From: Eubacteriales bacterium
Lineage (GTDB): Bacteria; Bacillota; Clostridia; Oscillospirales; JAAYXM01
Reading direction: 5' to 3'
DNA length: 64,000 nt
Assembly (NCBI GenBank): GCA_045580305.1
Contig: JAZNNQ010000002.1
Location: forward strand, 1,787 to 65,786
Part shown: in pieces, positions 6,003 through 23,226 of the stretch
How positions within the stretch are numbered: the stretch's first letter is position 1
Layout of the letters: every line of letters starts with the position of its first letter
Program-made: the position numbers and the translations under genes
Notes under the pieces: generated by a model
Seen by the model: the letters and a program-made list of their open reading frames with translations, nothing else
What the model was told of the DNA's origin: nothing
Database searches by the model: none

Positions 6003-6016
6003 AAGGGGGATATAAT

Positions 6017-6229: not shown

Positions 6230-6274
6230 CGAGCGGGTGGCATCTGCAAAAAACGAAAAGAAGCATAAAAACAG

Positions 6275-6310: not shown

Positions 6311-6336
6311 ACGGACACCTGTATGTCTGACTTGGG

Positions 6337-6345
6337 TGCTATAAT
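6337..6345 (+). promoter_or_regulatory. extended -10 element (TGcTATAAT)
   Basis: tgctataat read directly, about 27 nt upstream of the next ATG. The -35 is weak. Confidence 0.35.
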
Positions 6346-6371
6346 ATGTATGTAAAAGGGAGGTGAAGCGA

Positions 6372-6707: not shown

Positions 6708-6719
6708 GAAAGGAAAAAT

Positions 6720-7316
6720 ATGCCCAAAAACTGGAAGTATATCAAAAAACTGTTGGAGAAGGAGTTTCTCTGCGAAAAACTTAAGGGTCACATAACCTAT
6801 GACCTGACCGATTACAGACCTGCGCCCTGGTATCAGCAGCATTTCATTATGAAATACGATGATGAGGTTCTGCTTTGTGCATCGCAGCCCGACCGCAAGT
6901 GGGACAAGCGCCATCCATATCAGCATACCTATTGGAAGCAGCGGGATGTAATCGCCGAAAAGCTCCGCGAAAAATATGACCTGTCGGAGGAGCAGCTTGC
7001 GGATGTTGTTGAAGATACAATCGAAGAGGTGGACAGAATAAATGCCCATTACGACGGGGTGTTTGGCGTCAAGGACATTGTTGATCTTATCGGCGAGTAT
7101 CTTCATTCGGATATTGAAGCAAGTCTCGGATATCGGCAGGACTACTTCATTAACGCCCTCGCCGTACTTGACAGACGCTGCGGCAAGCGCAGGCTCGAGA
7201 AGCTTGCAAAAACGGACTGTGCGGGATTTCCCGAGTGGTTAAGGCGGATATGCAGGATACGCTTTGAAGCGGAAGGTGTAAGCTACAACAAATATTTTGA
7301 TATTGCAAGAATTTAA
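6720..7316 (+). CDS. hypothetical protein
   Basis: 198 aa, 12-nt gap from the previous gene. No motif I can assign. Confidence 0.5.
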   Translation: MPKNWKYIKKLLEKEFLCEKLKGHITYDLTDYRPAPWYQQHFIMKYDDEVLLCASQPDRKWDKRHPYQHTYWKQRDVIAEKLREKYDLSEEQLADVVEDTIEEVDRINAHYDGVFGVKDIVDLIGEYLHSDIEASLGYRQDYFINALAVLDRRCGKRRLEKLAKTDCAGFPEWLRRICRIRFEAEGVSYNKYFDIARI

Positions 7317-7329
7317 AGGAGTGTATTTT

Positions 7330-7881
7330 ATGTTAGGAAAAATCTTTTCATTACTGGTTGGTTTAGGTATCGGTACCGCGACCGTGAAGCTGATTTCGGA
7401 TAAAATTGCCGATAATGCAAAAAGCAATATTTTATCAATGCTCTACGCGGCAAGAAAACAATACGATGCAGGCGAACTCACCCAGCTGCAGTATGATGAA
7501 ACCCTGAAAATATTACATAAATCCGTAAGCGAAAAGGATAGAAAAGCGATAGACGAGGAGCTGGAAGAGAGGTATTTCATAGCTGAGGATATGTTAAATA
7601 CCCATATCGAGCTATTGGACGAGATCGAGGAGGCGGGAGCTGCCTCGCTGCAGGAATACATTGAAAAGCACCCGAATGATGCCTATATAAACGGCATTGT
7701 GGGCCTGGATGATTATGTATATGAAGAAGGTGAAAAGTCCCCGGAGGAGGCAGAACGCCTTTTGAAAAAATACATATATAATGTCGGAGAAGAGAAAAAA
7801 GAGCTGATAGCAGAGGTAAAGATGCTCGGCGGCGACATTGACAGAGTACAGCGCATATTTGATAAAATAACATTTGAATAA
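7330..7881 (+). CDS. N-terminally membrane-anchored acidic coiled-coil protein
   Basis: ATG 7330 lies 8 nt after AAGGAG. TM MLGKIFSLLVGLGIGTATVKLI followed by Glu-rich helices. Confidence 0.55.
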   Translation: MLGKIFSLLVGLGIGTATVKLISDKIADNAKSNILSMLYAARKQYDAGELTQLQYDETLKILHKSVSEKDRKAIDEELEERYFIAEDMLNTHIELLDEIEEAGAASLQEYIEKHPNDAYINGIVGLDDYVYEEGEKSPEEAERLLKKYIYNVGEEKKELIAEVKMLGGDIDRVQRIFDKITFE

Positions 7882-7962: not shown

Positions 7963-8015
7963 TCATTTATATAGTCTGCCTGCATTTATTACGAAGAATT
8001 TTAAGGAGATAATTT

Positions 8016-11000: not shown

Positions 11001-11591
11001 AATATTGATTTTGAAAGTGTTGTTAATGACTTCAAAAAACGCGATAGCGATCAAGGAAAGTCGTTGGAGGATCAAATACTTGATGCAGCCCAAAAAGGTA
11101 GAGACAATTTTGAAGAAAAGGCTGTTGATTTCGAGGAAGAAGCCGAGAAAATTATAGTATGGAAAAATTCAGAGTGTGATGAAAAGATATATGTTCTAAC
11201 ACGAAAAAGGCTTTTTGCAAGATATTTTGACAACAGCATATGGTATGAAGGGCTGAAGTTTAATGCCTTTCTGTTTATACCACAGATGTGCGAAGAGGTG
11301 TCTTTTGTTTCAACAAGAGATGTATTTGATGTTCGCGTGGAAATAGAGACGGTTAGAAAAGCAATAGAAGAAAAATTCAAATACGCTCTCGTTGAATTTG
11401 ATCCCGCAAAACCCAAATTTGACCGGTTTGTTAAAGGTTGTAGAATTGATAAAACTGTCCAAGAACCAATTAATCAGTTCTATAACGCATATTTGAATTA
11501 TTTAAAACTGGGAGCAATAAAACCTGAAATTGCTGAAGCATTTTCAGACTATGTTAGGCATATGAAACGCACAATTGAAAATATGAAATAG
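8016..11591 (+). CDS. TIR-domain protein with ~1050-aa helical C-terminal region of unknown function
   Basis: 1191 aa. N-terminus MAYDIFISYKESDG..VFIFVLS..DYVCWELSRA is a TIR signature that includes the conserved Glu. I found no Walker A motif. RBS AAGGAG. Confidence 0.75.
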   Translation: MAYDIFISYKESDGAQYAEKLKKGLTGKGYKSVYFNKTDKDEEGSFITRLENAIKTCKVFIFVLSENAKQSILNKTAEKGSKEFDYVCWELSRAREYSKHVLILNTGCSFDPYTDKYKYDDMKDIEIYTGRDCKSSLLEAQTFEMDKILDEQGDLLKSAGVDISLRMTLRRVIYGVLSLKYKAKNPAGNYVDKECIFNKQALEALCEYITKDNSITTEIENCATAEKLTEYMNNTNHEMLQGFCEHFEMEPGGKEQKAINIKIKDIAMCKLYEMDCWEVLEYLYNSYLMMNFHEDYASIRKFYLNKTISDYILALAWNRYFIKNKDKRRELVYKIIPELIRTHNHAQRYLFALIEKGRFESGDEWLFCDIGEEHSSQIKILFGEYYRDVFNTDMARSTFTERLFMWFNRNKDSFVDFCLQLIKKYKCSDAEIWNFLIVKCDTLANKNSLEILKGYFSEYVKQKNYKVIFRMIEQGLNKFVFFNGNQEKDQKLFDLLYGATTNREVVEKYGHGLAKAFYTFWKNDQHTEEIKQITYEKHLDKIVSFKNLYNIVEGITLENPGIPKKKFEEILRETVNESDDKILEDKQFLYVLNNIWVTDQNADLYNRAVSRLLDVCTYLNRYYGFTVLLFVRYGRKSFNEANRKRLFECIKDFADKYGADVKLEDKHYDKMFKILENHYFDDIRTDFKMKVFDNEGVAPETKLNIFNLWYDVGLKERLKEKIKENTDENNETQKAFKILFKAKNKRWKNLQGWKAVHLYPLIEELLDFENFVELKPDIQKNLIHNVKTKKEFYPKIKALLDSFKVNEYAWNSLSASVKIAFVMHINKIIEKFEEIDFINCFAESVIEDVASMRKRRGEVETEYGIREETLMYHMILLYRKKPWKTARLCAAAQVKWYGQLKYEDEKDDYNKKNMLFERRELFKTAVSNPCIKDLTCYLARANYSVVRQNSSEIANEPDVLKDFTTLFRNIIGGRIPLWFGAEVAAPIKTKMQWIENIDFESVVNDFKKRDSDQGKSLEDQILDAAQKGRDNFEEKAVDFEEEAEKIIVWKNSECDEKIYVLTRKRLFARYFDNSIWYEGLKFNAFLFIPQMCEEVSFVSTRDVFDVRVEIETVRKAIEEKFKYALVEFDPAKPKFDRFVKGCRIDKTVQEPINQFYNAYLNYLKLGAIKPEIAEAFSDYVRHMKRTIENMK

Positions 11592-11665
11592 TTTTGTCAT
11601 CTAAATTGTGCACTAATTCTATAATGAACTCAATATATGATCGTATATATTGAGTGGAGGGTACT

Positions 11666-12577
11666 ATGTCAAAATATGCAGTTAGTGATGAAGGTATAAA
11701 AGCTCTTAAAATAACAGCATCTAATGTTTTAAATGCCGTTGAACGGATATTGAATGCTACAAACTCTATAGAATCTGTTGCTGACGAGCATGTTGAAACT
11801 TTAGGACCACACTATGCTTCGTTAGTCGCTGCAATCACAGAGATACGCGAAGCGCAAAGACAAGCAGTTCAACCTGCATATGACATATCCGAAACATTGA
11901 ATGATATTGCCGATGCCTACCAAGATATAATAGATGATGATAAAATTCTTGCAGGCAACAGCGGAACATCTGCAGCAGGTGGTTTGCAGGGCGGAGGAAG
12001 CGACGGCAGTAACAAAGGTGGCAAAGTTGCGTCGTTTTTTGGGAAGATATTTGGCAGCACCGGCGCTTCAGGAAGCCGGTTTGGAGAGTTTAATGTGGAC
12101 TCAAACGGGTTTGTAAAGGGTAATGGATATGACTGTTTTATAAATGACTGGAATAGTTACGGGAAAGTGGAATTTGAAACAGACACGAAAAGTTATTCCG
12201 GGAAAAATGTTACTGAAACGATTGACCCCGGATTGATAGCGGGATTTCGGGTAAGAGAATATGACATCAAGAACCCGGGAACATTTTGGAGCCAACATCA
12301 AACGGGAGGCACTGCGGAGTCGTTTAAAGAAGTGGCTTCGCATATCCCGGAGGTAAAGAGTGAACTGGCTAAAGGCCGCTCTTTGGTTGATTTGGAGAAC
12401 GATCCGGTATTGGGCCCGTGTGCTTCAGTTTATTTTGATCCTGAGAATATGGTGAAAGTAATAAAGTGCGAAGGTTACTATGAATTCCAAGGCAATGGGC
12501 GCCATAGGATTCTTGCGGCAAGAGCCGCGGGGTATGATATTCCGGTGAAGATTGTCGGCAGCCGCAAAAGAAAATAA
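11666..12577 (+). CDS. helical N-domain / Gly-rich linker / ParB-Srx-like C-domain protein (polymorphic-toxin-like architecture)
   Basis: ATG 11666 follows GGAGGG. About 95 aa of helix, then the linker GNSGTSAAGGLQGGGSDGSNKGG, then C-terminal YYEFQGNGRHRILAARAAGYDIPVKIV (ParB/sulfiredoxin-type GxxRxxA motif). Confidence 0.45.
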   Translation: MSKYAVSDEGIKALKITASNVLNAVERILNATNSIESVADEHVETLGPHYASLVAAITEIREAQRQAVQPAYDISETLNDIADAYQDIIDDDKILAGNSGTSAAGGLQGGGSDGSNKGGKVASFFGKIFGSTGASGSRFGEFNVDSNGFVKGNGYDCFINDWNSYGKVEFETDTKSYSGKNVTETIDPGLIAGFRVREYDIKNPGTFWSQHQTGGTAESFKEVASHIPEVKSELAKGRSLVDLENDPVLGPCASVYFDPENMVKVIKCEGYYEFQGNGRHRILAARAAGYDIPVKIVGSRKRK

Positions 12578-12596
12578 ATCGCAAAAAGAAGACACA

Positions 12597-12816
12597 ATGG
12601 ACGAAACAAATAACGATGATATAAATTCTTGAGGTTATTCGCGATATAGAAAAATTTGATTTTGTTATATTTGGTGAGATTCTTATATCATATTGCATTG
12701 CCTACGAAAAATCGCAATTCAACGGTTCTTGTTTCAAAGAGTACATCTATCCACCGACAGCAACGGAGTTTCTCATTGAGGAGAGACAAATGAAGGAAAA
12801 GAGCTTTTGTCCCTGA
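12597..12816 (+). pseudogene. possible frameshifted small ORF (candidate cognate/immunity gene remnant)
   Basis: ATG 12597 gives 11 codons and then TGA. The +1 frame stays open for 61 more codons (EVIRDIEKFDFVIFGEILISYCIAYEKSQFNG..) with no start codon of its own. Confidence 0.2.
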
Positions 12817-12860
12817 CCAGACATAAAGTTTGTCTAATTATTCAAAAAAGGAGAAAATAT

Positions 12861-15800
12861 ATGAATACAAAAGAAGTAACTCCCTATATCTTCATATCAT
12901 ATGCACATGAAGATGCAAATATTGCAAAACGCATCACCGAGTATCTGCAAAATGAAGGTTTTGAAGTTTGGATAGACTATAATAATATTCGCGCAGGAGA
13001 AAAATTCAACGGTGAAATTGCCAAAGCAATTATTGATTCATCGCTACTTATAGCAGTAGTTTCAAATGTATATATATCAAAAGATAAAGATTATTGCACA
13101 AAAGAAATCACATACGCACATAACAGGCAAAAAAATTATATGCCCGTTTACATTGAAAAAGTAAAAGTTCCTATTGGGTGCGAACTGGATTTTGTTTTTC
13201 ATAATGCTTCTCAAGTAGGATTTAATATGAGTCTGGAAAACGACGATGATTTTAATGCGCTTTGTCATTCGATTACAAATTCTGAGTATATGGATTATCT
13301 AAAAGAGTATATGCAAGGCGACACGCCATTGCCTATGCCATATATTAAACCGGACCGATTCGATAAAATTAAGAAATATTATCAGAAGATTGCAAATGGC
13401 AATTATTATTTACCGTCCATCGAAACAGAACTGTTTCCTCCATTTAAAATTGATTCAAAAATAGAGCGGTCTGGTAACAACAATGGACTTTTGTTAGAAA
13501 AAATCATTCAGGATTATAAGACGAATTTTCTGATAATTGGCGATGGAGGTTCCGGAAAAACTGTAGCATTAAGAAGTATATTTAGAAACTTTATAGATAA
13601 TGAAATACCAGCATTGTACATTCCGCTAAATAAAATTCAATTTTCAGAGAAAGTAACCATTCAATCTTATTTAGAAGATGAGATGCAATTAACATGGCAT
13701 TCTCTAAAGATATACGGGAAGCGCGATTCAAGCAACAGTCCATTACGATTATTATTCGACGGATTAAATGAGATTCCGGGGGATCGAAGAGCAGTATTAA
13801 ATCAAATCAAAGAAATTATGCGGTGGGATAATGTTCAGATTATAATATCTTCAAGAAGTGATTTTAGCAATAATTTAACACGAGACATCATGTTTAAAAC
13901 CATTTATTTACAACCCCTTGAAGAAAACACAGTAAAAGCATTTCTTGAAAAAAAGAGTATGCCTGCTAACCTTAATAAGAAAATGACTTCGCTGTTACGT
14001 AATCCATTGATGCTCATGTTATACATAAATACTGATATGAGCATGTATGAGCCTTTGTCGAAATATTCAAATTACTACAAAATAAATATTTCCAGTTCCC
14101 CGTCTTCCGAAGAACAAATCATGTGGAATTTCTTACAAAGCCAGCTATATCGTGTTGATGAGAGCTTTTCAAGTCAGTTTGTTTGTGATGCATTTGTTAT
14201 AATTGAATTTCTTTTGCCATTATTGGCGAACCATATGATAATAAACGGTAAAAGCAACATCGACGAAAACGAACTTGATGATTTCTTAGATTCCTTGACA
14301 TCACGAGATGACTATAAATATTACAATAATAGGTTGAGGAAGATTGAGCGAACATTAGATATTGAGGAATACAAATACAAGGGGAACAATTTGAATAGGG
14401 TTTTATTTAACAAATTATCCTTAATGGTTGAGGCTGAAACGGGCGAGGAAGATGACTCGAAAAGGTATGAGTTCTTTCATCAAAGTTTCAGAGATTTTTT
14501 TGCAGCTATGTTTGTTGCAAAAAAGCTTGAAATGATAGCAAATGAAAAAACAACCAACTTTGAAGAAATATCAAAAATCCCGTATGAGATTGAGATTATC
14601 AAATATGTTGCGGAAATTTCTATGGAAAAACAAGCAAAGCCGGTTTGGACAGCAGAAGGATTAACTTATCCCGGAAAAAACGAACCTCTCTCTGCTTCCT
14701 CTTTTTCTGATGCTGAAAAATCGTTAAATGCGTATAGAGGTCTATTTGATGAAAGTGCTCAAAACATTGTTTGTAATGTTTACAAGATAATGTCGATAGG
14801 TAGAGACAGACATTTGTCAAATTGTGATTTTTCATCATTAGATTTAAGAAAATGCAATCTTAAGGGTGGGTACTATTCTGATTGGTATTGTGATAATGAG
14901 TATCCGTCATCTTTTGAAAATTCGTACATAGACCTGGATTGTTTTATATCACAAGGACATCAAGCTACAATAAAATCAATCTGTGAAGGAAATGGAGGAG
15001 TATTTACTGCAGATACTGAAGGTACAGTTAAGCATTGGCGGTTCGATGAAAATATACCTATATTTACTGTAACAACACCGGAAGGAGCTATTATAAGTAT
15101 AGATTATTCTGAAAAATCAAAGCAATTGGCTATTCTAAAACAACATGCCGTATATTTATATGATTTAGAAACAGATGTAGTGTCTATGATTGCATCTGCA
15201 AAAAGTACATATCGCTACATTAGGTTTAATACAGACGATCAAATAGAAGTAACATATGACACATCACCTTTAACATGGACGAACTTGTCCGGAGTAATAA
15301 CGACTGATTATTTGTCGTTAGATATTCCTTGCGGGTGCTCTGCCATTGATTCAAAACATACGCAGATACTGAGAAGTTATCTCTACGGCACTGTTCATAG
15401 GTATGACCCCTGTGATAATTCAATTATCGGTGAACTAAATATGTTAGAAAAAGCAGAGGGAAATGGAATTACCGACATCAAGTTTAGTAATGACGATTCA
15501 AGATTTCTGGTTGGCTTCGGGAACAATGTCTTTGAGTTTGATAGTCATTCATTGGAACAGCTACACAAGCTGGAATTCAAATCTTTAGTTAATTCTGTTA
15601 TGTACACAGCGGACGATAAAATTGTGGTTGCAACAGGTGTAAATATAGTTGTGTTAAATAAAGATTTTTCTTATTACAAAGAGTTTGCAGGTGAGTCTCT
15701 TCCTAATATAATTAAAAAATTGTTTAAGGATGATGGAAAACTTTATTTTCTCGACACGACTGGAACAATCAAGCTTATTTCAGACAAGATAACCGTAAGT

Positions 15801-16205
15801 AAAACCAGAAAACCTTGGTTTAAACCCCGCACAATAGCCTTTGGACATGATGGACTTGACAGACACTCTACCAAGATGTTTGCGATAACAAGTGCACCTA
15901 AATTAATTGGTAAAGAAAAGAAAGTATGCATTGGATATGATTATGAGAAGAACGCTATTTTCGATTTAGTCAAGGATTATGAGATTTTCAATGTTTTCCA
16001 TGGCAGGGATAACGATGAATATGAAATCCATATACTTGCAAATAAGATAGTTGCTATAAATAAAAAAACCAGCGAACGAGTACTGTTTGTTAATTACAAG
16101 GGAATTACCATTCATGGGTGTAACTTTAAAAACATTTTAGGTAGCATAACCGAAGATGAAGGCATACATTTACTTGTGCAGAATGGAGGAATTGTTAATG
16201 AATAA
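12861..16205 (+). CDS. TIR-NACHT(STAND NTPase)-WD40-like repeat protein
   Basis: ATG 12861 follows AAGGAG. TIR signature YIFISYAHED..DYCTKEITYA. Walker A IIGDGGSGKTVAL and Walker B LRLLFDGLNEIP. C-terminal WD-like units such as GHQATIKSI..DTEGTVKHWRF. Confidence 0.8.
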   Translation: MNTKEVTPYIFISYAHEDANIAKRITEYLQNEGFEVWIDYNNIRAGEKFNGEIAKAIIDSSLLIAVVSNVYISKDKDYCTKEITYAHNRQKNYMPVYIEKVKVPIGCELDFVFHNASQVGFNMSLENDDDFNALCHSITNSEYMDYLKEYMQGDTPLPMPYIKPDRFDKIKKYYQKIANGNYYLPSIETELFPPFKIDSKIERSGNNNGLLLEKIIQDYKTNFLIIGDGGSGKTVALRSIFRNFIDNEIPALYIPLNKIQFSEKVTIQSYLEDEMQLTWHSLKIYGKRDSSNSPLRLLFDGLNEIPGDRRAVLNQIKEIMRWDNVQIIISSRSDFSNNLTRDIMFKTIYLQPLEENTVKAFLEKKSMPANLNKKMTSLLRNPLMLMLYINTDMSMYEPLSKYSNYYKINISSSPSSEEQIMWNFLQSQLYRVDESFSSQFVCDAFVIIEFLLPLLANHMIINGKSNIDENELDDFLDSLTSRDDYKYYNNRLRKIERTLDIEEYKYKGNNLNRVLFNKLSLMVEAETGEEDDSKRYEFFHQSFRDFFAAMFVAKKLEMIANEKTTNFEEISKIPYEIEIIKYVAEISMEKQAKPVWTAEGLTYPGKNEPLSASSFSDAEKSLNAYRGLFDESAQNIVCNVYKIMSIGRDRHLSNCDFSSLDLRKCNLKGGYYSDWYCDNEYPSSFENSYIDLDCFISQGHQATIKSICEGNGGVFTADTEGTVKHWRFDENIPIFTVTTPEGAIISIDYSEKSKQLAILKQHAVYLYDLETDVVSMIASAKSTYRYIRFNTDDQIEVTYDTSPLTWTNLSGVITTDYLSLDIPCGCSAIDSKHTQILRSYLYGTVHRYDPCDNSIIGELNMLEKAEGNGITDIKFSNDDSRFLVGFGNNVFEFDSHSLEQLHKLEFKSLVNSVMYTADDKIVVATGVNIVVLNKDFSYYKEFAGESLPNIIKKLFKDDGKLYFLDTTGTIKLISDKITVSKTRKPWFKPRTIAFGHDGLDRHSTKMFAITSAPKLIGKEKKVCIGYDYEKNAIFDLVKDYEIFNVFHGRDNDEYEIHILANKIVAINKKTSERVLFVNYKGITIHGCNFKNILGSITEDEGIHLLVQNGGIVNE

Positions 16206-18045
16206 TAAGATAGAAGATTTAATAATAGAATTTTACGATTTTTCAATTTGTAAATGTAAAGCAAGTGTTAAGGTTTGCGAATTAGATATTTTTATACCGG
16301 ACTTTGTTGTAATGAATGCTTCAAATACAGTGGAAGTATATATGCCCGCTGCCTATAAAACTACATGGCCGTTTAAAGAAATAACATGGCACGAGATTCG
16401 GCATGCAGTTCTTGACGAATTCAAACAAAAATATCAATCCTTTGGAAGTTTTAATGTTGAGTTTGAGGCTATTGATAACAATGTATATCTTGCCAAGGTG
16501 GATTATGATTTCTTAGATATACACTTGGATGGGTGCAAAGTCAAAGTAAAAAACAAGCGCCCGTTTATAAATATGCCTGAAAATTTTAAAAATATATGGC
16601 CTTATCATTCCATCGCATGGTTGGATGTTCGCAATGCAATGGTAGAACATTTTAAGAAGCAAAGGAAAACTCAAAAAGATGTATTAAATTATATACCAAT
16701 GGTAAGTGTTCACGATGTATCTAACGACGGAACGGCGTTGTTTGATATAGAAATACCGGAATTGCAATATGAGCTTACAGATGGGGCCATATACTATATA
16801 AGTAATGATAATATCAATATTAATTTGCCGAGCGACTTTCCTGTTAACCCGGAAAATGGATTGACTCGAAAAGGTGTATTAAAAACTATACGCGAAGAAT
16901 ATTTAAAGCAAATTAATGGTATTGATATAACACCCTATTCCAAATCCGAAACACAATGCGAACTCGAATCGAACAAAAACAAATTCGGGAGAATAATGGA
17001 TGCTGATGGTAGGCCGTTCATGTTTGTTCCAAACACAGAATTAAGACCGATCGGAAAAATTTTTGATACGAATAAATTTCAAACAGCAAAAAAACTCCTT
17101 AAAGCATTAAGTAGCAATGACATAGGCATATTCGAAATTGATACATTATCTATAATTGAGAAATTTCGATATGTTAATAGTAATATGATCATAGATTTAT
17201 TTGCCAGCGGATATATTTCTCGAGGTTGGAGGAATATTAATAAAAATAAACTTGCTGGTATCTTTGACCGATTAGCAAAACATAATCTTGTAAATATATG
17301 CAAATTTGTGCGTGTAGATGAATCTTATCGAAACAATGTTACCGGCGAAGAAATTTACCGCATATTTTCGTTAGCTGAGACTGGAAATCGACTATTAAGT
17401 GAACTTGGTAGGGTTCACCACTATAATCCTTTTGATGTTTACCAAAACGGTAATTTTGTAAAAGCAATTCTAGCTGCAAATCAGTGGCTCGTTTATTGGC
17501 TAAGTTCTTATCCGGAGGAAATTAAGGACAAATATGACACCGCTAAAGTTATCCATGCTTTAGGTGCAGAGAAGAGTGGAGCAAAGATTTACTCTATGAT
17601 TACTTGCAATGATATAACTTTAATTGGAGAACCGTTAAGAAGAACATACGAATTTGATGAGCCTCAAAATGCGATTGAAATACAAGAGAAACTTAAACGC
17701 CTGTTCTACCTCATAGACTTTAAAGGTGATATATATACAAATAGCGGGTATAAGCCGGTTGAATACAATCTTGGAAATGATTCAATAATTTGCTACATAT
17801 GCGAAGATGACGACCATATTAAGGAAATGTGGCATATTGTAAAGTCCATAATAATGGATAATCCAAGCAAAAAAGTCTGGTTTACAACGGATGCGCGCTT
17901 ATTCAACTACTCTTGTGAAAACGAACGCTTTTTTATGTTTGACAAAGATGATCAAATGAACAGAGTGGATCTGTTTAATGAAATGAAACTTGGTAAAGAA
18001 CGCGCATATGATTTCATAGATCAGACAAGCACCGAATCGTTTTAA
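16198..18045 (+). CDS. protein with three tandem SpoVG-like repeats and a replication-relaxation-like winged-helix C-terminal half
   Basis: ATG 16198 lies 7 nt after GGAGGA and overlaps the upstream stop by 8 nt. There are three modules of about 80 aa, each ending ..MP..W/P..I.W..VR.A.L.EF/YK.Q. The C-terminal half contains IIEKFRYVNSNMIIDLF..IFDRLAKHNLV..IYRIFSLAETG. Confidence 0.45.
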   Translation: MNNKIEDLIIEFYDFSICKCKASVKVCELDIFIPDFVVMNASNTVEVYMPAAYKTTWPFKEITWHEIRHAVLDEFKQKYQSFGSFNVEFEAIDNNVYLAKVDYDFLDIHLDGCKVKVKNKRPFINMPENFKNIWPYHSIAWLDVRNAMVEHFKKQRKTQKDVLNYIPMVSVHDVSNDGTALFDIEIPELQYELTDGAIYYISNDNININLPSDFPVNPENGLTRKGVLKTIREEYLKQINGIDITPYSKSETQCELESNKNKFGRIMDADGRPFMFVPNTELRPIGKIFDTNKFQTAKKLLKALSSNDIGIFEIDTLSIIEKFRYVNSNMIIDLFASGYISRGWRNINKNKLAGIFDRLAKHNLVNICKFVRVDESYRNNVTGEEIYRIFSLAETGNRLLSELGRVHHYNPFDVYQNGNFVKAILAANQWLVYWLSSYPEEIKDKYDTAKVIHALGAEKSGAKIYSMITCNDITLIGEPLRRTYEFDEPQNAIEIQEKLKRLFYLIDFKGDIYTNSGYKPVEYNLGNDSIICYICEDDDHIKEMWHIVKSIIMDNPSKKVWFTTDARLFNYSCENERFFMFDKDDQMNRVDLFNEMKLGKERAYDFIDQTSTESF

Positions 18046-18282
18046 TATACACAAGCGACTATTGGTTAGGGATTTTAAAGAAAACGAAAATGCTGACAGG
18101 AGTTGAATGAATTGAGATGCACGATAAATGTAATAAAATTGGCAGATTGCTGATGGCATCAATAATAACTGCGAAGAAAGAACGAAAAATCAGTGATCTT
18201 TAAATCATGTGCTGATTTTACAATGTATCCAATCTAAGATGAATTTGGGCAACTTTAAATTTGACCTGAAAGAAGGATTATC

Positions 18283-20718
18283 ATGCATGAAGAGGAAAGA
18301 ATAGATGAAAGACACAGATATTTTGCTTTTGTAGCTTATACTCGATATAAAAGAAAAGATTTCAAATATGCAGAAAAAATATACAAAGAGCTTCAAAAGC
18401 ATAGATTACCCGCAAAGATTGCAAAGAAATATCCTGAAAAGCATAAAAGAACGAAGCCTTTATTTTTAGATCATTTTGATATGCCACCCGAAAATTACAA
18501 TAGGATTGATCCGCTTGCGTTAAAAGAGTCAAAGAAATTAATAGTAGTATGCTCAACCAGACTGGTCGAACATGAAACTACTGCCGTAATTAAGGAAATT
18601 CAAGACTTCTTGGATTCGGGACACGACTGGGATGATATTATTCCGGTTTTAGTGGAAAAACCGAATAAAAAAGAAGACCGTGACGCGCGTGTGCAAAGGT
18701 GCTTTCCTAAAATATTAAGAGAGTTAAATGCGAAAAATAACGGAGAATATAATAAGATAGCAGTTGATTTCTTCAAACCTTCCGGAAAAAAGGATGTGGA
18801 GAGTGTCATATACAAGATGATTTCATACATTCAAGGAATCAACTTGACGGAACTCGAAAGATTTGAGCGTAAGAGAAAAAGAATGCGAATGATTTTTGGC
18901 TCACTTTTATGTGCCGTTCTTATCCTGCTTGGTGTGCTTTTAATGGGGTGGACAAGCGAAAAGATCAATATAAAAAACGGAATACAAGAGGCAATCAATG
19001 TGTCCGAAAATAACACATATAATGCCATAACAAGTCTATTTGATATTGAAAAGCGCCAAAATCGTTTTTTATTGAATAACGAAAGAGTTTATAGTGCTCT
19101 TGAAGCGGCTGCCGATTACAAAGCGGGACAATGTTTGAGAAAAAAGCAATTTTATTTTAACAATATTGAAAGCATCGAGGTTGTTAATAAAGTGGGCAAC
19201 CTTTTTGGCGTCAAGACAACAGATCGATATTATGTTATAGATGTAAATGATTGTGAAATAAAGTATGAAATATCTGCCAATAACTTTTGGTATGAGAAAG
19301 AAAATAAAAAATATCAGATGGTTCTGAATAACGACGCGACAGGAGATTATGAACTTCAAAAAGTATGGTGTGACAATGATAAGGTATACCTTTCCATCGC
19401 ACCCCCAAATGATTACAATGCTGAAAAACTTGAAGTAGTTGTAGATATAGCCGACAATAGTTCATACCGCGCAGACATTATATGGGGCGATCAATCTTAT
19501 GCCAAAAAAGATGATGGGATTCAAATGTTGGGAACGGTTGTGTCAGTTCCTGATAAAGATGGAAATTTCACATCGCTGGTGCATGAATCTAATGTTGGCA
19601 CTTATGCGGTAAGGGCTGATTTGAATGTAATATGGTCTATGGATAAAACGGGTTGTGTGTATATTTGGTCAATGAGGAATGGATATTCTTTGGCCGATAA
19701 AATGTATGATAAGAACAATAGATATGTGTGGGCAACATCTACCGATGGATTATTGTTCAGAATCGATTTGGAAAGCGGCGAATTAACGAAGATAATAAAA
19801 AATAAAGAAATTTCTTTTATTGGACAAGATGATACGCAGATTTTTGTGGCAATAAAGAACGAAAATCTGGAATATCCGGCTATTTGCATGTGTGACAAAA
19901 AAACCGGTGTTGTAAAGCAAATAAACCGTCTCCCTGAAATAAATGAAAAAAATAAACATCTTATGACACCGCAATCAAATTCCCTGGTTGGAAGGGAATG
20001 TGTAATTGTAGCCCGAAGCCTTATCGATCACATTAATGGAAATCATCTGTCGGAGGCCTTGTTTGACAAGAACAATGCAATTAAATTTATGGATGTTCTT
20101 GAGGAAAATACTCTCGCTGATATTGAGGTATATTTCGATATGCAAAGCTCAGATGCATTTAATTCGATGAAAACCACTATCATATCAAACAGACAAACAG
20201 TGTTAATGCCAAGAATACACACCTTCAACGGTATGCTCACAGAGGAGCTATATAAAATCAATGATGGTGAATGGCGACCGATATATACAGATAGCGGTAT
20301 TTTAACTGGTATTGATATTCCGAAGGATTTAGATTTTGATAAAGAACATATTTTGCATATAAAAGCGGTTGATGGAAGTAAAAATGAAACGACCAAGTCG
20401 TTTAGATTTACTATGGAAAACCGGGAAGTTCAGTGGCGGATTGAAAGCGGCGGAAGACAACTTGCTTCCAAAGAAGTTACTGAGATAGAAACTCAGGATA
20501 TTGTAATTGAGTGTAAAGAAAATGCGGCCAATTCCGTAAAAGAAATTACATATGCTTTTGATAACGATCCGGAAGTATTTTGTGTGCAAGGCGAACGGGC
20601 AGAGATCAAAATACCTAAAAAATATCTCGATGGAAATGAACATAAGATATTGATATATTTTGTTTCTGAAAAGGTTACAACGAAGTATTATGTATATTCA
20701 TTTAAGTATGTAAAATGA
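18283..20718 (+). CDS. TIR-TM-extracytoplasmic beta-propeller/Ig-like protein
   Basis: 811 aa. TIR-like YFAFVAYTR..KPLFLD..KKLIVVCS..VIKEIQDF..IIPVLVEKP. KRKRMR plus TM IFGSLLCAVLILLGVLLMGW at aa ~203-223. WD-like strands and a beta-rich C-terminus. Confidence 0.65.
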   Translation: MHEEERIDERHRYFAFVAYTRYKRKDFKYAEKIYKELQKHRLPAKIAKKYPEKHKRTKPLFLDHFDMPPENYNRIDPLALKESKKLIVVCSTRLVEHETTAVIKEIQDFLDSGHDWDDIIPVLVEKPNKKEDRDARVQRCFPKILRELNAKNNGEYNKIAVDFFKPSGKKDVESVIYKMISYIQGINLTELERFERKRKRMRMIFGSLLCAVLILLGVLLMGWTSEKINIKNGIQEAINVSENNTYNAITSLFDIEKRQNRFLLNNERVYSALEAAADYKAGQCLRKKQFYFNNIESIEVVNKVGNLFGVKTTDRYYVIDVNDCEIKYEISANNFWYEKENKKYQMVLNNDATGDYELQKVWCDNDKVYLSIAPPNDYNAEKLEVVVDIADNSSYRADIIWGDQSYAKKDDGIQMLGTVVSVPDKDGNFTSLVHESNVGTYAVRADLNVIWSMDKTGCVYIWSMRNGYSLADKMYDKNNRYVWATSTDGLLFRIDLESGELTKIIKNKEISFIGQDDTQIFVAIKNENLEYPAICMCDKKTGVVKQINRLPEINEKNKHLMTPQSNSLVGRECVIVARSLIDHINGNHLSEALFDKNNAIKFMDVLEENTLADIEVYFDMQSSDAFNSMKTTIISNRQTVLMPRIHTFNGMLTEELYKINDGEWRPIYTDSGILTGIDIPKDLDFDKEHILHIKAVDGSKNETTKSFRFTMENREVQWRIESGGRQLASKEVTEIETQDIVIECKENAANSVKEITYAFDNDPEVFCVQGERAEIKIPKKYLDGNEHKILIYFVSEKVTTKYYVYSFKYVK

Positions 20719-20802
20719 TGAGCATATTAACCTAAAGGTGCGCTTGCGGGGCGTATGACTTGATTCTGCCGCAAGGAACACAAATTTTTTGGAGTGAAAG
20801 CA

Positions 20803-23226
20803 ATGAGTGAGCAATACACACACGACATATTTATAAGTTTCAGCTTTGCCGATCAGCAGGTGGCTGAGGAGATTGTCAACATACTGAACACCAAATACGG
20901 TTTTTCCTGCTGGATATGTACCCGTGACATTGACGGCGGCCGACGCTACAAGGCACTTATTCCCGATGCAATTGACGGCGCCCGCGCAGTGGTGTTCATT
21001 CAGAGTGAGAAGGCGCTGGCCTCCCGTGAGATACCCAAGGAAATCGGTATGGCATTTGACGCTGATAAGGTCATCATTCCCTTTAAACTTGACCAGGCGC
21101 AGCCTCAGGGTGACTTGCGCTACGATCTGTATGGTGTTGAGTACATAGATGCTACCGTTCCCACCAAGGAGCAGAGGATATACGAGCTGGCAAAGGCGGT
21201 CTCAAAAGCGATAGCGAAGCCTCTGCCCGATGATGCCGCGCCCTTGACGGGTGAACGGATTATTTCCACCCCGTCAGTTATTCCGAAGAATGTATTTTGT
21301 GGCAGAGAGTGTGTGCTGCAGACGCTTTGTGATAAGTTCGCCGAGGGTGAACGGGTGGTTTTCCTGCAGGGCATCGGAGGTATCGGAAAGACCGAGATTG
21401 CAAAGCAATACGCTAAAAGAAACAGAACAAAATATGATACAATCGTCTATGCCACCTACGGCGGAAGCATTGAAGATATTATAAATGGTGATGAGCCGTT
21501 TACACTTGAACCGGAACTGCCGCGGCTTCTTATGTCCGACGGAACCCGGGAGGATGACCGGGCATATTTTGCGAGAAAACTACGCAAGATACAGCAGATT
21601 ACCGATGAGAAAACCCTTATTATCATCGATAATTTTGACACAAAGAATGACCCGGCATTGACCGAACTTTTACAAGGCAGGTACCACCTGCTTATCACCA
21701 CCAGATGCGACTATGCCCGAATGTATCCCACTATTAAGGTCGGCCCCATTGATTCTATGGACAACCTGCTTGATGTGTTTATGGAAAATTACCGTGGCTT
21801 TGAGGTAGAGCGTGAGGATGAGGCGCTTAACGAGCTTATAGAGCTTGTAAACCGCCACACCTACACCATAGAGCTTCTGGCACAGCATATGGAAAACAGC
21901 GGCCAGACCGCAGAGGAGATGCTGGCCGCACTCAAAAAAGAGGGCATAATGTCCCTCAATGAAGAGGTTGGCTCTGCGGGCAATAAAACCCGCGTAGCAT
22001 ACGAAAACCTTATAAAAATGTTCAAGGTCTTTTCTCTGACTGATGAGGAGCAGCGTATATTGCGCTTGCTGTCCCTGATGCCGCTCGGCGGTGTGAATGT
22101 GCGGGACTTTAAGTTCTGGGCGAACCTTTCATCACTTAAAATATTAAACGATCTTGATTGCCGCGGCTGGATAATGCGAAATACCGGCGGTATCGCATTG
22201 CATCCTATTGTACGCGATGTTGTGCGTCACGAGCTGCCGGTAACCGAGGAAAATACGGGTGAGTTTTTACAACAATTCACCGAAACCATAGCAGAGAGCA
22301 AGACATGGCGCTACCCGATGGCGCAAAAAGAGGTCTATGCCGCAATTGCAGCGGAACTGCTGGATGTGTTCGACACCATCAATGAGGACACGCTGTCATT
22401 ATACCAGAAGGCGGAAACGCTGTTCAGCTTCTCGGTGCGTCCCGAGGCGGCGGTGGAGCTTGCTGCGCGTCTGTATGAGTATAATTGTGCTGCCGTCGGC
22501 AAGGAGAGCTTCCGTGCGGGTTATGCTGCTTTCAAGGCCGGTTGGGCGTATAAATTCAACCTCTGTCTTGAAAATGCGCTGGAAAACGCGGAAAAATGGC
22601 TTACTCTGGGCGGCGAGATTATGGGCGGACTTAAGCTCGATACATCCTTTGAAAATGCGACATACGGCCAGCTTTTGGGCAATCTTTCCCGCGTGTGCAT
22701 CCTGCTGTCCGAGGAGAAGTACGATAAGGAAAGACTGCTTTTGGCAAAGGCATATGCCGGTGACTCGGTTGATGTAAGTGAAGAGTGGCTTTTTCCGGGC
22801 GACCCACAGTATCCCAAAGTGGCAGGCGCGTATATGCAGATGGCAGATGCCTGCATCGCCCTTGAGGAATATGATCGCGCTAAGGAGTTGATTGATGCAT
22901 CCTACGACATCCTGTTTGCCCTTTTTGGCGACAATGATCCCGACACACTCCACGCGCTGGCGCGAAAGGCGACTATTCTATACCATACAGGCAAATATGA
23001 GGACGCTATCGCTACCGCATCACGGAGTATGGAAGGCTACGGCCATTTTTATGGCGAGCTTCACGGTGAGCGATATGAACAGCTTATCATTCTTTTGAAA
23101 TCCCACCTTGCTATGGGAAACACCGAAAAAGTGAAAGAACTGAAGGCGTATGCGCTGGAAATCGGCGGAAAGATATTTGCCGAAAATTCCGAACAGTTGC
23201 GGTACTTAAATGAATTAAAGGACTGA
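20803..23226 (+). CDS. TIR-NB-ARC(STAND)-TPR protein
   Basis: ATG 20803. TIR signature HDIFISFSFADQ..REIPKEIGMA. P-loop VVFLQGIGGIGKTEIAKQYA and Walker B LIIIDNFD. C-terminal TPR-like helical repeats. GC matches the flanking chromosome. Confidence 0.8.
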   Translation: MSEQYTHDIFISFSFADQQVAEEIVNILNTKYGFSCWICTRDIDGGRRYKALIPDAIDGARAVVFIQSEKALASREIPKEIGMAFDADKVIIPFKLDQAQPQGDLRYDLYGVEYIDATVPTKEQRIYELAKAVSKAIAKPLPDDAAPLTGERIISTPSVIPKNVFCGRECVLQTLCDKFAEGERVVFLQGIGGIGKTEIAKQYAKRNRTKYDTIVYATYGGSIEDIINGDEPFTLEPELPRLLMSDGTREDDRAYFARKLRKIQQITDEKTLIIIDNFDTKNDPALTELLQGRYHLLITTRCDYARMYPTIKVGPIDSMDNLLDVFMENYRGFEVEREDEALNELIELVNRHTYTIELLAQHMENSGQTAEEMLAALKKEGIMSLNEEVGSAGNKTRVAYENLIKMFKVFSLTDEEQRILRLLSLMPLGGVNVRDFKFWANLSSLKILNDLDCRGWIMRNTGGIALHPIVRDVVRHELPVTEENTGEFLQQFTETIAESKTWRYPMAQKEVYAAIAAELLDVFDTINEDTLSLYQKAETLFSFSVRPEAAVELAARLYEYNCAAVGKESFRAGYAAFKAGWAYKFNLCLENALENAEKWLTLGGEIMGGLKLDTSFENATYGQLLGNLSRVCILLSEEKYDKERLLLAKAYAGDSVDVSEEWLFPGDPQYPKVAGAYMQMADACIALEEYDRAKELIDASYDILFALFGDNDPDTLHALARKATILYHTGKYEDAIATASRSMEGYGHFYGELHGERYEQLIILLKSHLAMGNTEKVKELKAYALEIGGKIFAENSEQLRYLNELKD

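What the first reader, a model, noticed from the sequence alone, without database searches (positions are those of the whole stretch)
18283..20718. Single-pass membrane TIR protein with a large predicted extracytoplasmic beta-rich domain (receptor-like topology)
The N-terminal ~190 aa match the common bacterial TIR pattern (YFAFVAYTR..LFLD..LIVVCS..VIKEIQDF..IIPVLVEKP). A KRKRMR cluster is followed by one TM helix (aa ~203-223). By the positive-inside rule, the TIR is cytoplasmic and the remaining ~585 aa are outside. That outer part includes WD/propeller-like strands such as GCVYIWSMRNG and TDGLLFRIDLESGE, plus Ig/FN3-like C-terminal segments. An outward-facing sensor wired to an intracellular TIR would allow detection of events at the cell surface, such as phage adsorption or envelope damage. 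This is conceptually TLR-like and not typical of characterised bacterial TIR systems.
Basis: partly seen in the sequence, partly recalled or inferred. Interest (0 to 1): 0.6.

Follow-up and report, generated by a model that had tools for sequence, protein, structure and literature searches.

The report
Single-pass membrane TIR receptor-like protein
A gut or rumen Clostridia bacterium encodes a protein with an immune-type TIR domain inside the cell, one membrane-spanning helix and a large outward-facing domain; this layout proves common but unstudied in bacteria, and may let them sense threats from outside.

Summary

**TIR domain.** The match is weak for this sequence alone (Pfam TIR_2 23 bits, cut-off 28). 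It is secure through the family: a profile of its close homologues reaches 6,017 cluster representatives, and 49 of 51 sampled match TIR_2. The catalytic-type Glu (E105) is invariant.

**Topology.** There is one strong TM helix (aa 203-225). K/R is enriched on the TIR side in 136 of 137 relatives. That puts the TIR in the cytoplasm and 585 aa outside.

**Outer part.** It has a helical stalk, a beta-rich and possibly propeller-like region (low-confidence model, no significant WD40 sequence match), a linker, and two Ig-like domains. This outer part is very rare (about six sequences). It also occurs fused to a Ser/Thr kinase across a TM helix. Its C-terminal domain is repeated in a secreted SLH cell-wall protein. 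Both facts support an outside location.

**Context and reading.** The gene lies in a low-GC island with three other TIR genes. No conserved partner gene was found. The most likely function is an outside-in sensor that clusters a cytoplasmic TIR, but that is inference.

TIR-TM-X is abundant in sequence databases, usually with WD40 outside, yet I found no published description. The topology is the reverse of TLRs.

The parts
18112..18166 (+). Two overlapping sigma-70-like promoter matches in the 237-nt gap upstream of the gene (consensus matches only)
   Evidence: 10 of 12 matches each; sequence
18272..18277 (+). Shine-Dalgarno-like GAAGGA, 5 nt before the ATG
   Evidence: read directly
18283..20718 (+). 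Complete gene, 811 aa: TIR, juxtamembrane helix, one TM helix, 585-aa outer region
18316..18732 (+). TIR domain (aa about 12-150). Putative catalytic Glu is E105 (codon 18595-18597). Divergent from the family: A18, E70 and A101 replace the consensus Ser, BB-loop Gly and Trp/Tyr
   Evidence: Pfam TIR_2 E = 1.2e-4; profile hits to TLR2, AbTIR, TcpB and MyD88 TIRs; 49 of 51 relatives match TIR_2; column counts; alternating strand/helix order in the AF2 model
18733..18888 (+). Helical extension and juxtamembrane segment (aa 151-202), ending in the basic cluster ERKRKRMR. Conserved with the TIR across the TIR-TM family (CFP motif at aa 140-142, RK at aa 196-197)
18889..18957 (+). Transmembrane helix, aa 203-225 (MIFGSLLCAVLILLGVLLMGWTS)
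   Evidence: 7 K/R before, 2 after; same bias in 136 of 137 relatives
18958..19146 (+). Predicted helical stalk outside the membrane (aa 226-288), with the conserved GQCLRK motif
19147..19923 (+). Beta-rich region (aa 289-547, about 25 strands), possibly a 6-7-bladed propeller. Contains one WD40-like motif, LVHESNVGTYAVRADLNVIWSMDKTGCVYIWSM
   Evidence: AF2 pLDDT 60-88; Foldseek propeller hits with low TM-scores; non-significant WD40 hits; no sequence repeats
19924..20235 (+). Segment modelled with very low confidence (aa 548-651); structure unknown
   Evidence: pLDDT about 24-45
20236..20715 (+). Two tandem Ig-like beta-sandwich domains (aa about 652-715 and 716-811). They are homologous to a domain repeated four times in a secreted SLH cell-wall protein (P0036)
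   Evidence: AF2; E = 1.1e-25 with 4 matched stretches; BLASTP 35% identity, E = 4e-17 across both domains; SLH domain in P0036
8016..11591 (+). Context only: 1191-aa protein with an N-terminal TIR. No functional link to the target shown
   Evidence: TIR_2 E = 1.1e-10
12807..16205 (+). Context only: TIR-NACHT-beta-propeller (STAND) protein
16156..18045 (+). Context only: 629-aa ORF immediately upstream, with no match in any library. Not conserved next to homologues of the target
20794..23226 (+). Context only: TIR-AAA16/NB-ARC-TPR (STAND) protein, 75 nt downstream. Host-like GC (0.50), unlike the island

Best explanation
The gene encodes a bitopic, N-in/C-out membrane protein of a monoderm Clostridia bacterium.

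**Anatomy.** A cytoplasmic TIR domain, of the enzymatic type judged by its invariant Glu, connects through a conserved helical extension and a basic juxtamembrane segment to one TM helix. A 585-aa region follows outside the membrane: helical stalk, beta-rich and possibly propeller-like domain, linker, and two Ig-like domains of a kind also used by cell-wall proteins.

**Family.** It is a rare outer-domain variant of a very large, uncharacterised family in which a constant TIR-TM module is joined to interchangeable outer domains.

**Proposed mechanism (inferred, not shown).** The outer domain binds a ligand or detects a change at the cell surface or wall. That changes the oligomeric state of the protein in the membrane. 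The cytoplasmic TIR domains are brought together, which is the established way TIR enzymes are switched on. They then cleave NAD+, either depleting it (growth arrest or abortive infection) or making a signalling nucleotide.

**Role.** The location in a horizontally acquired island with three other TIR genes, two of them STAND NTPases, suggests immunity or inter-microbial conflict.
For: **TIR assignment.**
- Weak direct Pfam hit.
- A profile of five N-termini hits mostly TIR structures in the PDB (22 of 25): TLR2 at E = 6e-4, then AbTIR, TcpB, MyD88, RPV1.
- The homologue profile reaches 6,017 representatives at E <= 1e-3 and 1,661 at E <= 1e-10. Nearly all of the best 150 match only positions about 8-220.
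- 49 of 51 sampled match TIR_2 and 40 of 51 match ThsB_TIR.
- E105 is present in 49 of 49 and aligns with the Glu of the AbTIR motif WTNYELD.

**Topology.**
- One TM helix.
- K/R flank counts average 6.2 on the N side against 2.3 on the C side, with N > C in 136 of 137 relatives.
- There is no signal peptide.
- P0008 carries a Pkinase domain (E = 3e-19), a TM helix and the same outer domain along its whole length (E = 1e-63). Both the kinase and the TIR need cytoplasmic substrates.
- P0036, which has a signal peptide and an SLH domain, carries four copies of the C-terminal domain.
- Published predictions place WD40/TPR arrays of kinase-TM-WD40 proteins in the periplasm (PMC11032199).

**Modularity.** Among 128 outer domains there are 64 WD40, 45 of an unknown class, 5 of this class, and singletons.

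**Stand-alone unit.** No partner gene is conserved among homologue loci. The gene has its own promoter-like sites. It is the only membrane protein among the neighbouring TIR genes.

**Context.** There is a low-GC island, four TIR genes within 15 kb, and TIR genes next to homologues in L001 and L004.

**Basis of the mechanism.** Activation of TIR enzymes by induced proximity is established knowledge (SARM1, plant TNLs, TIR-STING, TIR-SAVED). I did not test it here.
Against: - No experiment supports topology, NADase activity or any ligand.
- This TIR is a divergent member of its family. It lacks the Ser of the first strand (A18), the BB-loop Gly (E70) and the aromatic residue four positions before the Glu (A101; Trp or Tyr in 44 of 49 relatives). 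Catalysis could therefore be weak or altered.
- The structure models are poor (mean pLDDT 56 and 63). The propeller is not established.
- More distant family members (P0005, P0006) sit among housekeeping genes rather than in defence islands.
- There is no PADLOC or PHROGs match.
- The outer domain is not more variable than the TIR among the three close homologues (57-58% against 62 and 43% identity). That is not the pattern expected of a fast-evolving pathogen sensor.
Confidence: 0.5

Rival explanations
1. Membrane-anchored TIR effector with an inside trigger. The outer region is a cell-wall or surface anchoring and localisation module rather than a sensor. The TIR is switched on from the cytoplasmic side, for example by hetero-association with the neighbouring TIR or STAND proteins or by a nucleotide signal.
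For: - The C-terminal Ig-like domain is shared with an SLH cell-wall protein, so it may simply bind wall polymers.
- TIR genes recur beside the target and its homologues: in the window, in L001 and in L004.
- The outer domain is not hypervariable.
Against: - The neighbouring TIR genes are not orthologous between loci.
- Distant family members are solitary genes.
- A 585-aa multi-domain outer region that is swapped wholesale between TIR and kinase outputs is more typical of input domains than of anchors.
Confidence: 0.2
2. Housekeeping or social signalling receptor rather than immunity. The protein reports cell-wall status, nutrients or cell-cell contact, as PknB/PrkC-type receptor kinases do. 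The TIR acts as a scaffold or makes a regulatory nucleotide without killing the cell.
For: - The same outer domain drives a Hanks-type kinase in P0008, a typical physiological signalling output.
- The best Foldseek hits are periplasmic sensor domains of Bacteroides hybrid two-component systems that sense glycans.
- Family members P0005 and P0006 lie among metabolic genes, one next to a glycoside hydrolase.
- The window TIR lacks several consensus residues.
Against: - The Foldseek TM-scores are 0.12-0.16, so the match to glycan sensors is only local.
- The window gene sits in a low-GC island full of TIR/STAND genes, a WYL regulator and dynamin-like GTPases.
- The kinase variant is next to AbiEi.
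- The catalytic-type Glu is invariant.
Confidence: 0.2
3. The topology is wrong. Either the hydrophobic segment is not membrane-spanning, or the C-terminal region is cytoplasmic, which would make this an ordinary soluble or peripherally attached TIR + beta-propeller protein like the many cytoplasmic TIR-WD40 and TIR-STAND proteins.
For: - No topology predictor or experiment was run.
- WD40 domains are mostly cytoplasmic in characterised proteins.
- The neighbouring gene at 12807-16205 is a cytoplasmic TIR-NACHT-propeller protein.
Against: - The segment is 23 uncharged residues with Kyte-Doolittle 2.81, flanked by RKRKRMR.
- A hydrophobic segment at the same position, with varying sequence, occurs in 137 of the best 150 relatives. 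The charge bias holds in 136 of 137.
- The homologous domain occurs in a protein with a signal peptide.
- Moving a 200-aa highly charged N-terminal TIR across the membrane without a signal peptide is implausible.
Confidence: 0.05

Closest known systems
Bacterial enzymatic TIR proteins of anti-phage systems (Thoeris ThsB, TIR-STING, TIR-SAVED/CBASS, PycTIR, TIR-Avs, AbTir)
   Same: TIR_2/ThsB_TIR-type domain with the conserved catalytic-type Glu. N-terminal TIR fused to a variable C-terminal region. Located in a defence-like island beside TIR-STAND genes.
   Different: All characterised systems are cytoplasmic and are triggered by intracellular cues such as phage proteins or nucleotide signals. 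This protein spans the membrane with its non-TIR part outside. It has no ThsA-type effector, cyclase or STAND module of its own and no PADLOC match. Its TIR lacks the Trp/Tyr and BB-loop Gly of its own family.
Animal Toll-like and IL-1 receptors
   Same: Single-pass membrane protein with a cytoplasmic TIR and a large extracellular beta-rich or Ig-like region. The best PDB sequence-profile hit of the TIR is TLR2. Signalling by induced TIR proximity is the natural mechanism for both.
   Different: Topology is reversed (type II, with the TIR at the N-terminus). There are no LRRs, no signal peptide and no MyD88-type adaptors. The Glu typical of NADase TIRs is kept. The resemblance is therefore convergent architecture, not orthology.
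Receptor-type Hanks Ser/Thr kinases (PknB/PrkC; kinase-TM-WD40/TPR proteins of Planctomycetota, PMC11032199)
   Same: Same overall plan: N-terminal cytoplasmic enzyme, basic juxtamembrane segment, one TM helix, C-terminal outer sensor. One relative (P0008) is exactly such a kinase carrying this very outer domain.
   Different: The output domain is a TIR rather than a kinase. The outer domain is neither PASTA nor recognisable WD40/TPR.
Periplasmic sensor domains of Bacteroides hybrid two-component systems (BT4663, BT4673: two propellers plus a Y_Y_Y Ig-like domain)
   Same: Best Foldseek hits for both models (E about 4e-11). The order is also a beta-propeller-like region followed by Ig-like domain(s) outside the membrane.
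   Different: TM-scores are 0.12-0.16 and rmsd exceeds 20 A. There is no Pfam Reg_prop or Y_Y_Y match, and no PDB sequence-profile hit to them. Homology is not shown.
Metacaspase-TM-sensor proteins of bacteria (PMC3501461)
   Same: A cell-death-type effector domain in the cytoplasm is coupled through TM helices to predicted extracellular receptor domains.
   Different: The effector is different (a caspase-like protease), and these proteins are likewise uncharacterised experimentally.

Membership tests
TIR domain superfamily (Pfam TIR_2, PF13676) | Single-sequence match above Pfam's gathering score | tested here: not met
   23 bits against a cut-off of 28, E = 1.2e-4. The close homologue P0007 is similar, at 24.1 bits.
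TIR domain superfamily (Pfam TIR_2, PF13676) | Profile-level or transitive homology to bona fide TIR domains | tested here: met
   The profile of five N-termini hits mostly TIR structures (22 of 25). The homologue profile hits proteins at E = 1e-20 to 1e-49, of which 49 of 51 sampled match TIR_2 above E = 1e-3, the best at 4.8e-17. All 120 listed hits carry precomputed PF13676.
TIR domain superfamily (Pfam TIR_2, PF13676) | Flavodoxin-like alternating strand/helix fold (bA-aA-bB-aB-bC-aC-bD-aD-aE) | tested here: inconclusive
   The AF2 model shows the expected order (E12-19, H24-39, E57-63, H77-82, E85-90, H101-111, E119-123, H130-151, H169-184), but at pLDDT 50-75.
Enzymatic (NADase) TIR domains | Catalytic Glu in helix aC | tested here: met
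   E105 is present in 49 of 49 family members. It aligns with the Glu of AbTIR ...WTNYELD.... That this Glu is AbTir's catalytic residue, and that it corresponds to SARM1 E642 in WVHKEI, is from my own knowledge.
Enzymatic (NADase) TIR domains | Aromatic residue (Trp) four positions before the Glu, and BB-loop Gly | tested here: not met
   A101 where 44 of 49 relatives have Trp or Tyr. E70 where 45 of 49 have Gly.
Enzymatic (NADase) TIR domains | NAD+ cleavage activity | not testable with these tools
   Needs a biochemical assay.
TIR-TM-X family (unnamed; N-terminal TIR + conserved helical extension + basic juxtamembrane + one TM + variable C-terminal region) | Homology across TIR, extension and juxtamembrane segment | tested here: met
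   Matches run over profile positions about 8-220 with E down to 1e-49. Conserved columns include C140, F141, P142, R196 and K197.
TIR-TM-X family (unnamed; N-terminal TIR + conserved helical extension + basic juxtamembrane + one TM + variable C-terminal region) | Single TM helix at about residue 175-230 with K/R excess on the TIR side | tested here: met
   aa 203-225, with 7 K/R before and 2 after. The family averages 6.2 against 2.3, with N > C in 136 of 137.
Toll-like receptors (animal) | Type I topology: N-terminal signal peptide and LRR ectodomain, C-terminal TIR | tested here: not met
   The TIR is N-terminal. There is no signal peptide and no LRR match in Pfam.
Thoeris | TIR (ThsB) gene paired with a ThsA-type effector (SIR2/SLOG, Macro-TM and so on) in one operon | tested here: not met
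   No PADLOC match for the target. The neighbours are TIR-STAND proteins and an unknown ORF. No partner is conserved at homologue loci.
WD40 beta-propeller | Significant match to WD40 or propeller profiles, or detectable blade repeats | tested here: not met
   Pfam shows only E = 0.05-0.06 hits to DUF6923 and a propeller family. hhalign against WD40 relatives gives probability about 1%. Self-comparison finds no repeats. PDB profile hits to WD40 proteins have E >= 0.38.
WD40 beta-propeller | Propeller fold | tested here: inconclusive
   The AF2 model has about 25 strands at pLDDT 60-88. Foldseek returns hundreds of propeller hits at E <= 1e-3, but with TM-scores of 0.1-0.2.
Hybrid two-component system periplasmic sensor (Reg_prop + Y_Y_Y) | Match to Reg_prop/Y_Y_Y profiles, or a global structural match | tested here: not met
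   No Pfam hit. These are the top Foldseek hits, but with TM-scores of 0.12-0.16.
Receptor-type Hanks Ser/Thr kinases | Pkinase catalytic domain | tested here: not met
   Absent in the window protein. Present in relative P0008, which shares the outer domain.

The most novel reading that the evidence does not exclude
The window protein and the thousands of TIR-TM-X relatives form a widespread class of bacterial outside-in innate immune receptors. An extracytoplasmic domain (WD40, this beta-rich/Ig module, or others) would recognise phage particles, competitor toxins or wall damage at the cell surface. It would then switch on a cytoplasmic TIR NADase by induced clustering. This would be a convergent bacterial counterpart of Toll-like receptors, and the first bacterial TIR pathway triggered before the invader's genome or proteins reach the cytoplasm.
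Probability: 0.3. Interest if true: 0.85.

Novelty: new variant of a known kind. Interest (0 to 1): 0.6.

Why it matters
Every bacterial TIR system characterised so far senses events inside the cell. A TIR wired to an outward-facing domain would give bacteria a way to respond at the stage of adsorption, wall breach or contact with a competitor. It would also show that the 'extracellular sensor, one TM helix, cytoplasmic TIR' logic of animal TLR/IL-1R signalling arose independently in bacteria.

The practical value of this work lies mainly in three points:
- **Family size.** The architecture is not a one-off. It is a large, generically annotated family with at least 1,661 clusters at 50% identity (E <= 1e-10), which makes it open to systematic testing.
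- **Interchangeable outputs.** The same outer domain is also used by a receptor kinase, so the outputs can be swapped.
- **A concrete construct.** The boundaries are defined for experiments: TIR 1-200, TM 203-225, outer region 226-811, and E105.

If the TIR proves inactive, or the outer part is only an anchor, the finding reduces to an unusual membrane-tethered TIR protein.

Tried and rejected
1. **Direct family assignment of the whole protein.** Pfam gave only a sub-threshold TIR_2 hit. PADLOC, NCBIfam and PHROGs gave nothing.
2. **Single-sequence search of the PDB.** Nothing meaningful.
3. **Deepening the outer-domain alignment.**
   - The word-indexed search with the alignment returned only the four known sequences.
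   - The exhaustive representative search added only P0007, P0008 and the repeat protein P0036.
   - A scan of one genome per GTDB species found no relative.
4. **Structure prediction.** Two AF2 runs gave mean pLDDT of 56 and 63. Fold assignments beyond 'beta-rich plus two beta-sandwiches' are therefore not reliable.
6. **WD40 membership by sequence.** hhalign against P0005 and P0006 and self-comparison for blades were all negative.
7. **Conserved operon partner.** All-against-all BLAST of neighbours at four homologue loci found none. Only non-orthologous TIR genes and a recurring DUF3232 gene turned up.
8. **Mobile-element borders.** No tRNA and no convincing flanking repeats.
9. **Exact look-up of the window protein's contig.** Not on record. 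Cluster look-up gave no names. The host was therefore inferred from the adenine deaminase gene.
10. **Literature.** Seven full-text searches (TIR-TM, TIR-WD40, transmembrane TIR, single-pass and others) found no description of bacterial TIR-TM-sensor proteins. Only analogous kinase and metacaspase architectures came up. Subscription journals are not covered.
Full report
**1. The observation**

A GAAGGA ribosome-binding site lies 5 nt before the ATG. Two promoter-like matches lie in the 237-nt upstream gap.

A hydrophobicity scan finds one outstanding segment only: aa 203-221, Kyte-Doolittle 2.81. It extends to 23 uncharged residues, aa 203-225. It is preceded by LTELERFERKRKRMR (7 K/R) and followed by a stretch with 2 K/R. 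The N-terminus is highly charged and is not a signal peptide.

Full-length homologues of 58% and 53% identity (P0002, P0003) and about 30% identity (P0007) come from unrelated metagenomes. This is therefore a real, conserved gene.

**2. Is the N-terminus a TIR?**

On its own the sequence only grazes Pfam TIR_2 (E = 1.2e-4, 23 bits against a cut-off of 28). It has no PADLOC or NCBIfam match. Three further lines settle the question.

- **PDB profile search.** A profile of five N-termini finds mostly TIR domains (22 of 25 hits): TLR2 at E = 6e-4, then AbTIR, TcpB, PdTIR, MyD88, RPV1 and SNC1.
- **Exhaustive search.** An HMM search of 1.84 billion cluster representatives with the homologue profile gives 6,017 hits at E <= 1e-3 and 1,661 at E <= 1e-10. 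Almost all of the best 150 match only profile positions about 8-220. Of 51 sampled, 49 match TIR_2 (best 4.8e-17) and 40 match ThsB_TIR.
- **Predicted structure.** The AF2 model has the expected alternation of strands and helices, though at low confidence.

The Glu that aligns with the AbTIR ...WTNYELD... Glu is E105, and it is invariant in 49 of 49 relatives. That this is the catalytic residue, equivalent to SARM1 E642, comes from my own knowledge.

The window protein and its close kin are nonetheless a divergent branch. They have Ala for the near-invariant Ser of the first strand. They have Glu for the BB-loop Gly (45 of 49). They have Ala where 44 of 49 relatives have Trp or Tyr four residues before the Glu. 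This explains the weak Pfam score. It also leaves some doubt about catalytic strength.

**3. Topology**

The single TM helix and the positive-inside rule place the TIR in the cytoplasm. This is a property of the whole family. A hydrophobic segment sits at residue about 173-236 in 137 of the best 150 relatives. The 15-residue flank on the TIR side holds on average 6.2 K/R against 2.3 on the other side, and is richer in 136 of 137.

Two comparative observations support an outside location for residues 226-811.

- **A kinase fusion.** P0008 (967 aa) has a Hanks-type kinase domain (Pkinase E = 3e-19, aa 102-314), a basic stretch (KKTKRR), a TM helix, and then the same outer domain aligned end to end (E = 1e-63, 28% identity). 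A kinase and a TIR both need cytoplasmic substrates (ATP and NAD+). The shared domain must therefore be on the other side.
- **A secreted relative.** The last 90-140 residues are homologous to a domain repeated four times in P0036 (35% identity, E = 4e-17, spanning two tandem copies). P0036 starts with a typical signal peptide (MNKKIVSIFLVVIMLMTYIAPFSIA) and ends with DUF11 and SLH cell-wall domains.

Published work predicts the same arrangement for kinase-TM-WD40/TPR proteins of Planctomycetota, with the kinase in the cytoplasm and the repeats in the periplasm (PMC11032199). It also describes metacaspases joined to extracellular receptor domains (PMC3501461). I could not run a dedicated topology predictor, and no experiment exists.

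**4. What the outer part is**

AF2 on the six-sequence alignment (mean pLDDT 63, pTM 0.45) predicts four parts:
- three helices just after the membrane (aa 226-288);
- about 25 strands (aa 289-547, pLDDT 60-88);
- a stretch without confident structure (aa 548-651);
- two beta-sandwich domains (aa 652-811, pLDDT up to 88).

Foldseek returns hundreds of beta-propellers. The periplasmic sensors of Bacteroides hybrid two-component systems rank first (E about 4e-11). TM-scores are 0.12-0.2 and rmsd is about 20 A, so only local blade-like similarity is shown.

At the sequence level, one segment (LVHESNVGTYAVRADLNVIWSMDKTGCVYIWSM) looks like a WD40 repeat and draws only WD40 proteins from the PDB. 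Those hits have E >= 0.38. Profile comparison with the WD40 relatives P0005 and P0006 gives about 1% probability. Self-comparison finds no repeats.

I therefore call this region 'beta-rich, possibly a propeller'.

This outer domain is very rare. Exhaustive and word-based searches recover only P0001-P0004, P0007 and P0008. None is found in one genome per GTDB species.

**5. The wider family**

Clustering the post-TM regions of 128 relatives gives 64 with canonical WD40 arrays. Another 45 share a roughly 744-aa region with no Pfam match at all. Five belong to the present type, and the rest are small groups. Further C-terminal domains seen among shorter hits include Sel1, TPR and CarboxypepD_reg-like domains.

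NCBI names these proteins only 'toll/interleukin-1 receptor domain-containing protein'. They come from Bacteroidales, Synergistaceae, Elusimicrobia, Rhodanobacteraceae and other taxa.

Seven full-text searches found no paper describing this bacterial architecture. A recent systematic survey of bacterial TIR signalling explicitly set aside stand-alone TIR proteins.

**6. Genomic setting**

The nearest relatives of the adjacent adenine deaminase gene are uncultured Oscillospiraceae and rumen Clostridia genomes (63-64% identity). The host is therefore a monoderm Clostridia bacterium, and 'outside' means the wall zone.

The gene lies at the end of a low-GC block. Genes from 8016 to 20718 have GC of 0.34-0.35, except the short 11654-12577 gene at 0.44. 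The surrounding sequence is about 0.48.

The region holds four TIR genes in 15 kb:
- a 1191-aa TIR protein;
- a TIR-NACHT-propeller protein;
- the target;
- just beyond the block, a TIR-NB-ARC-TPR protein.

It also holds an unknown 629-aa ORF. Upstream lie a WYL regulator, a dynamin-like GTPase pair and an SF0329 protein. The target is the only membrane protein among the TIR genes.

At homologue loci the neighbours differ. L001 has a 1036-aa protein with a TIR-like segment. L004 has two TIR genes and a methyltransferase. L003 has ComEC and HolA downstream. The kinase variant sits next to an HTH gene, an unknown 487-aa gene and, in one contig, AbiEi.

Nothing is orthologous across the loci apart from a DUF3232 gene seen twice. 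The more distant TIR-TM-WD40 genes P0005 and P0006 sit among ordinary metabolic genes. I conclude that the protein is a self-contained unit. Its defence role is suggested by context but not established.

**7. Mechanism**

*Shown by computation:* domain identities, one TM helix, the charge bias, swapping of outer domains and of output domains, and the invariant Glu.

*Inferred:* the outer domain binds something or senses a change at the surface. This alters oligomerisation. Clustered TIR domains then cleave NAD+. TIR enzymes are known to be activated by induced proximity (SARM1, plant TNL resistosomes, TIR-STING and TIR-SAVED filaments); this is established knowledge that I did not test here.

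A continuous predicted helix runs from the juxtamembrane segment through the TM helix (aa 188-221). It would be a simple way to couple the two sides.

The rivals are:
- an anchoring role for the outer part, with activation from inside;
- a physiological rather than immune signalling role, as with receptor kinases;
- with low probability, a wrong topology.

The fairly even conservation of the outer domain and the TIR among the close homologues argues against a rapidly evolving pathogen sensor in this small clade.

**8. Comparison and verdict**

The protein may work like a TLR or IL-1R: sensor outside, one TM helix, TIR inside. It is not a member of that family, because the topology is reversed, there are no LRRs, and the TIR is of the enzymatic type.

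It is a member of the TIR superfamily. It is also a member of a large unnamed TIR-TM-X family. It shares its plan, and in one relative its actual outer domain, with receptor-type Ser/Thr kinases.

I rate it a new variant of a known kind. The interest is moderate to high (0.6) because the family is large, apparently undescribed, and directly testable. All functional statements remain inference.

Noticed in passing
window 8016-23226: Four TIR-domain genes lie on the + strand within 15 kb: 8016-11591 (TIR plus about 1000 aa with no family), 12807-16205 (TIR-NACHT-propeller), 18283-20718 (the target) and 20794-23226 (TIR-NB-ARC/AAA16-TPR, NCBIfam FxSxx_TPR E = 1e-22). TIR genes also sit beside homologues of the target in L001 and L004. 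This could be defence-island clustering or functional cooperation.
   Followed up: partly
window about 8000-21000: A low-GC block (0.31-0.39; genes at 0.34-0.35) lies in a genome region of about 0.48 GC, which suggests horizontal acquisition. No tRNA, integrase or flanking repeats were found.
   Followed up: partly
window 16156-18045: A 629-aa ORF directly upstream of the target has no match in Pfam, NCBIfam, PADLOC or PHROGs. It overlaps the end of the TIR-NACHT gene by 50 nt. By eye, its N-terminal third holds about three internal repeats (..TWHEIRHAVLDEFKQKY / ..AWLDVRNAMVEHFKKQ / ..RKGVLKTIREEYLKQ). It may be a partner of the TIR-NACHT gene.
   Followed up: no
window 11654-12577: A 307-aa protein has a weak EspC/WXG-like helical N-terminus (E = 5e-3), a Gly/Ser-rich linker and a basic C-terminal domain. 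It looks like a type VII secretion (LXG-like) polymorphic toxin set among the TIR genes. Its GC (0.44) is higher than its neighbours'.
   Followed up: no
window 684-7881: Upstream module: a WYL-WCX transcription regulator, a 167-aa protein, a GTPase (MMR_HSR1), a dynamin-like protein (DLP_helical E = 5e-54) and an SF0329-family protein. This resembles a dynamin-type defence or membrane-repair cassette.
   Followed up: no
L001 5901-6287; L002 3858-4244; L004 10863-11252: A DUF3232 gene (128-129 aa, 51% identical between loci) recurs downstream of homologues of the target. It is adjacent in L001 and L002 and 3.6 kb away in L004. It was not among the window genes scanned.
   Followed up: partly
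proteins P0011, P0013, P0016, P0019 and 41 others: The second largest class of TIR-TM proteins has a roughly 744-aa region after the TM helix that starts with a conserved DYYVPK..YYLDYT motif. It matches no Pfam family at all. This is a large unknown outer domain.
   Followed up: partly
L005 2556-5459 and L006 5164-8067 (protein P0008): A Hanks-type Ser/Thr kinase is fused through one TM helix to the same rare outer domain as the target. It is preceded by an HTH gene and an unknown 487-aa gene, and in L006 lies next to AbiEi. It comes from the same JGI sample (3300031555) as the TIR homologue P0002.
   Followed up: partly
proteins P0023, P0037, P0079: Three giant proteins (1,969-3,011 aa) carry the TIR-TM module in the middle (around residues 1466-1804) and a further TM segment near residue 180. 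They may be tandem fusions of two such receptors or gene-calling artefacts.
   Followed up: no
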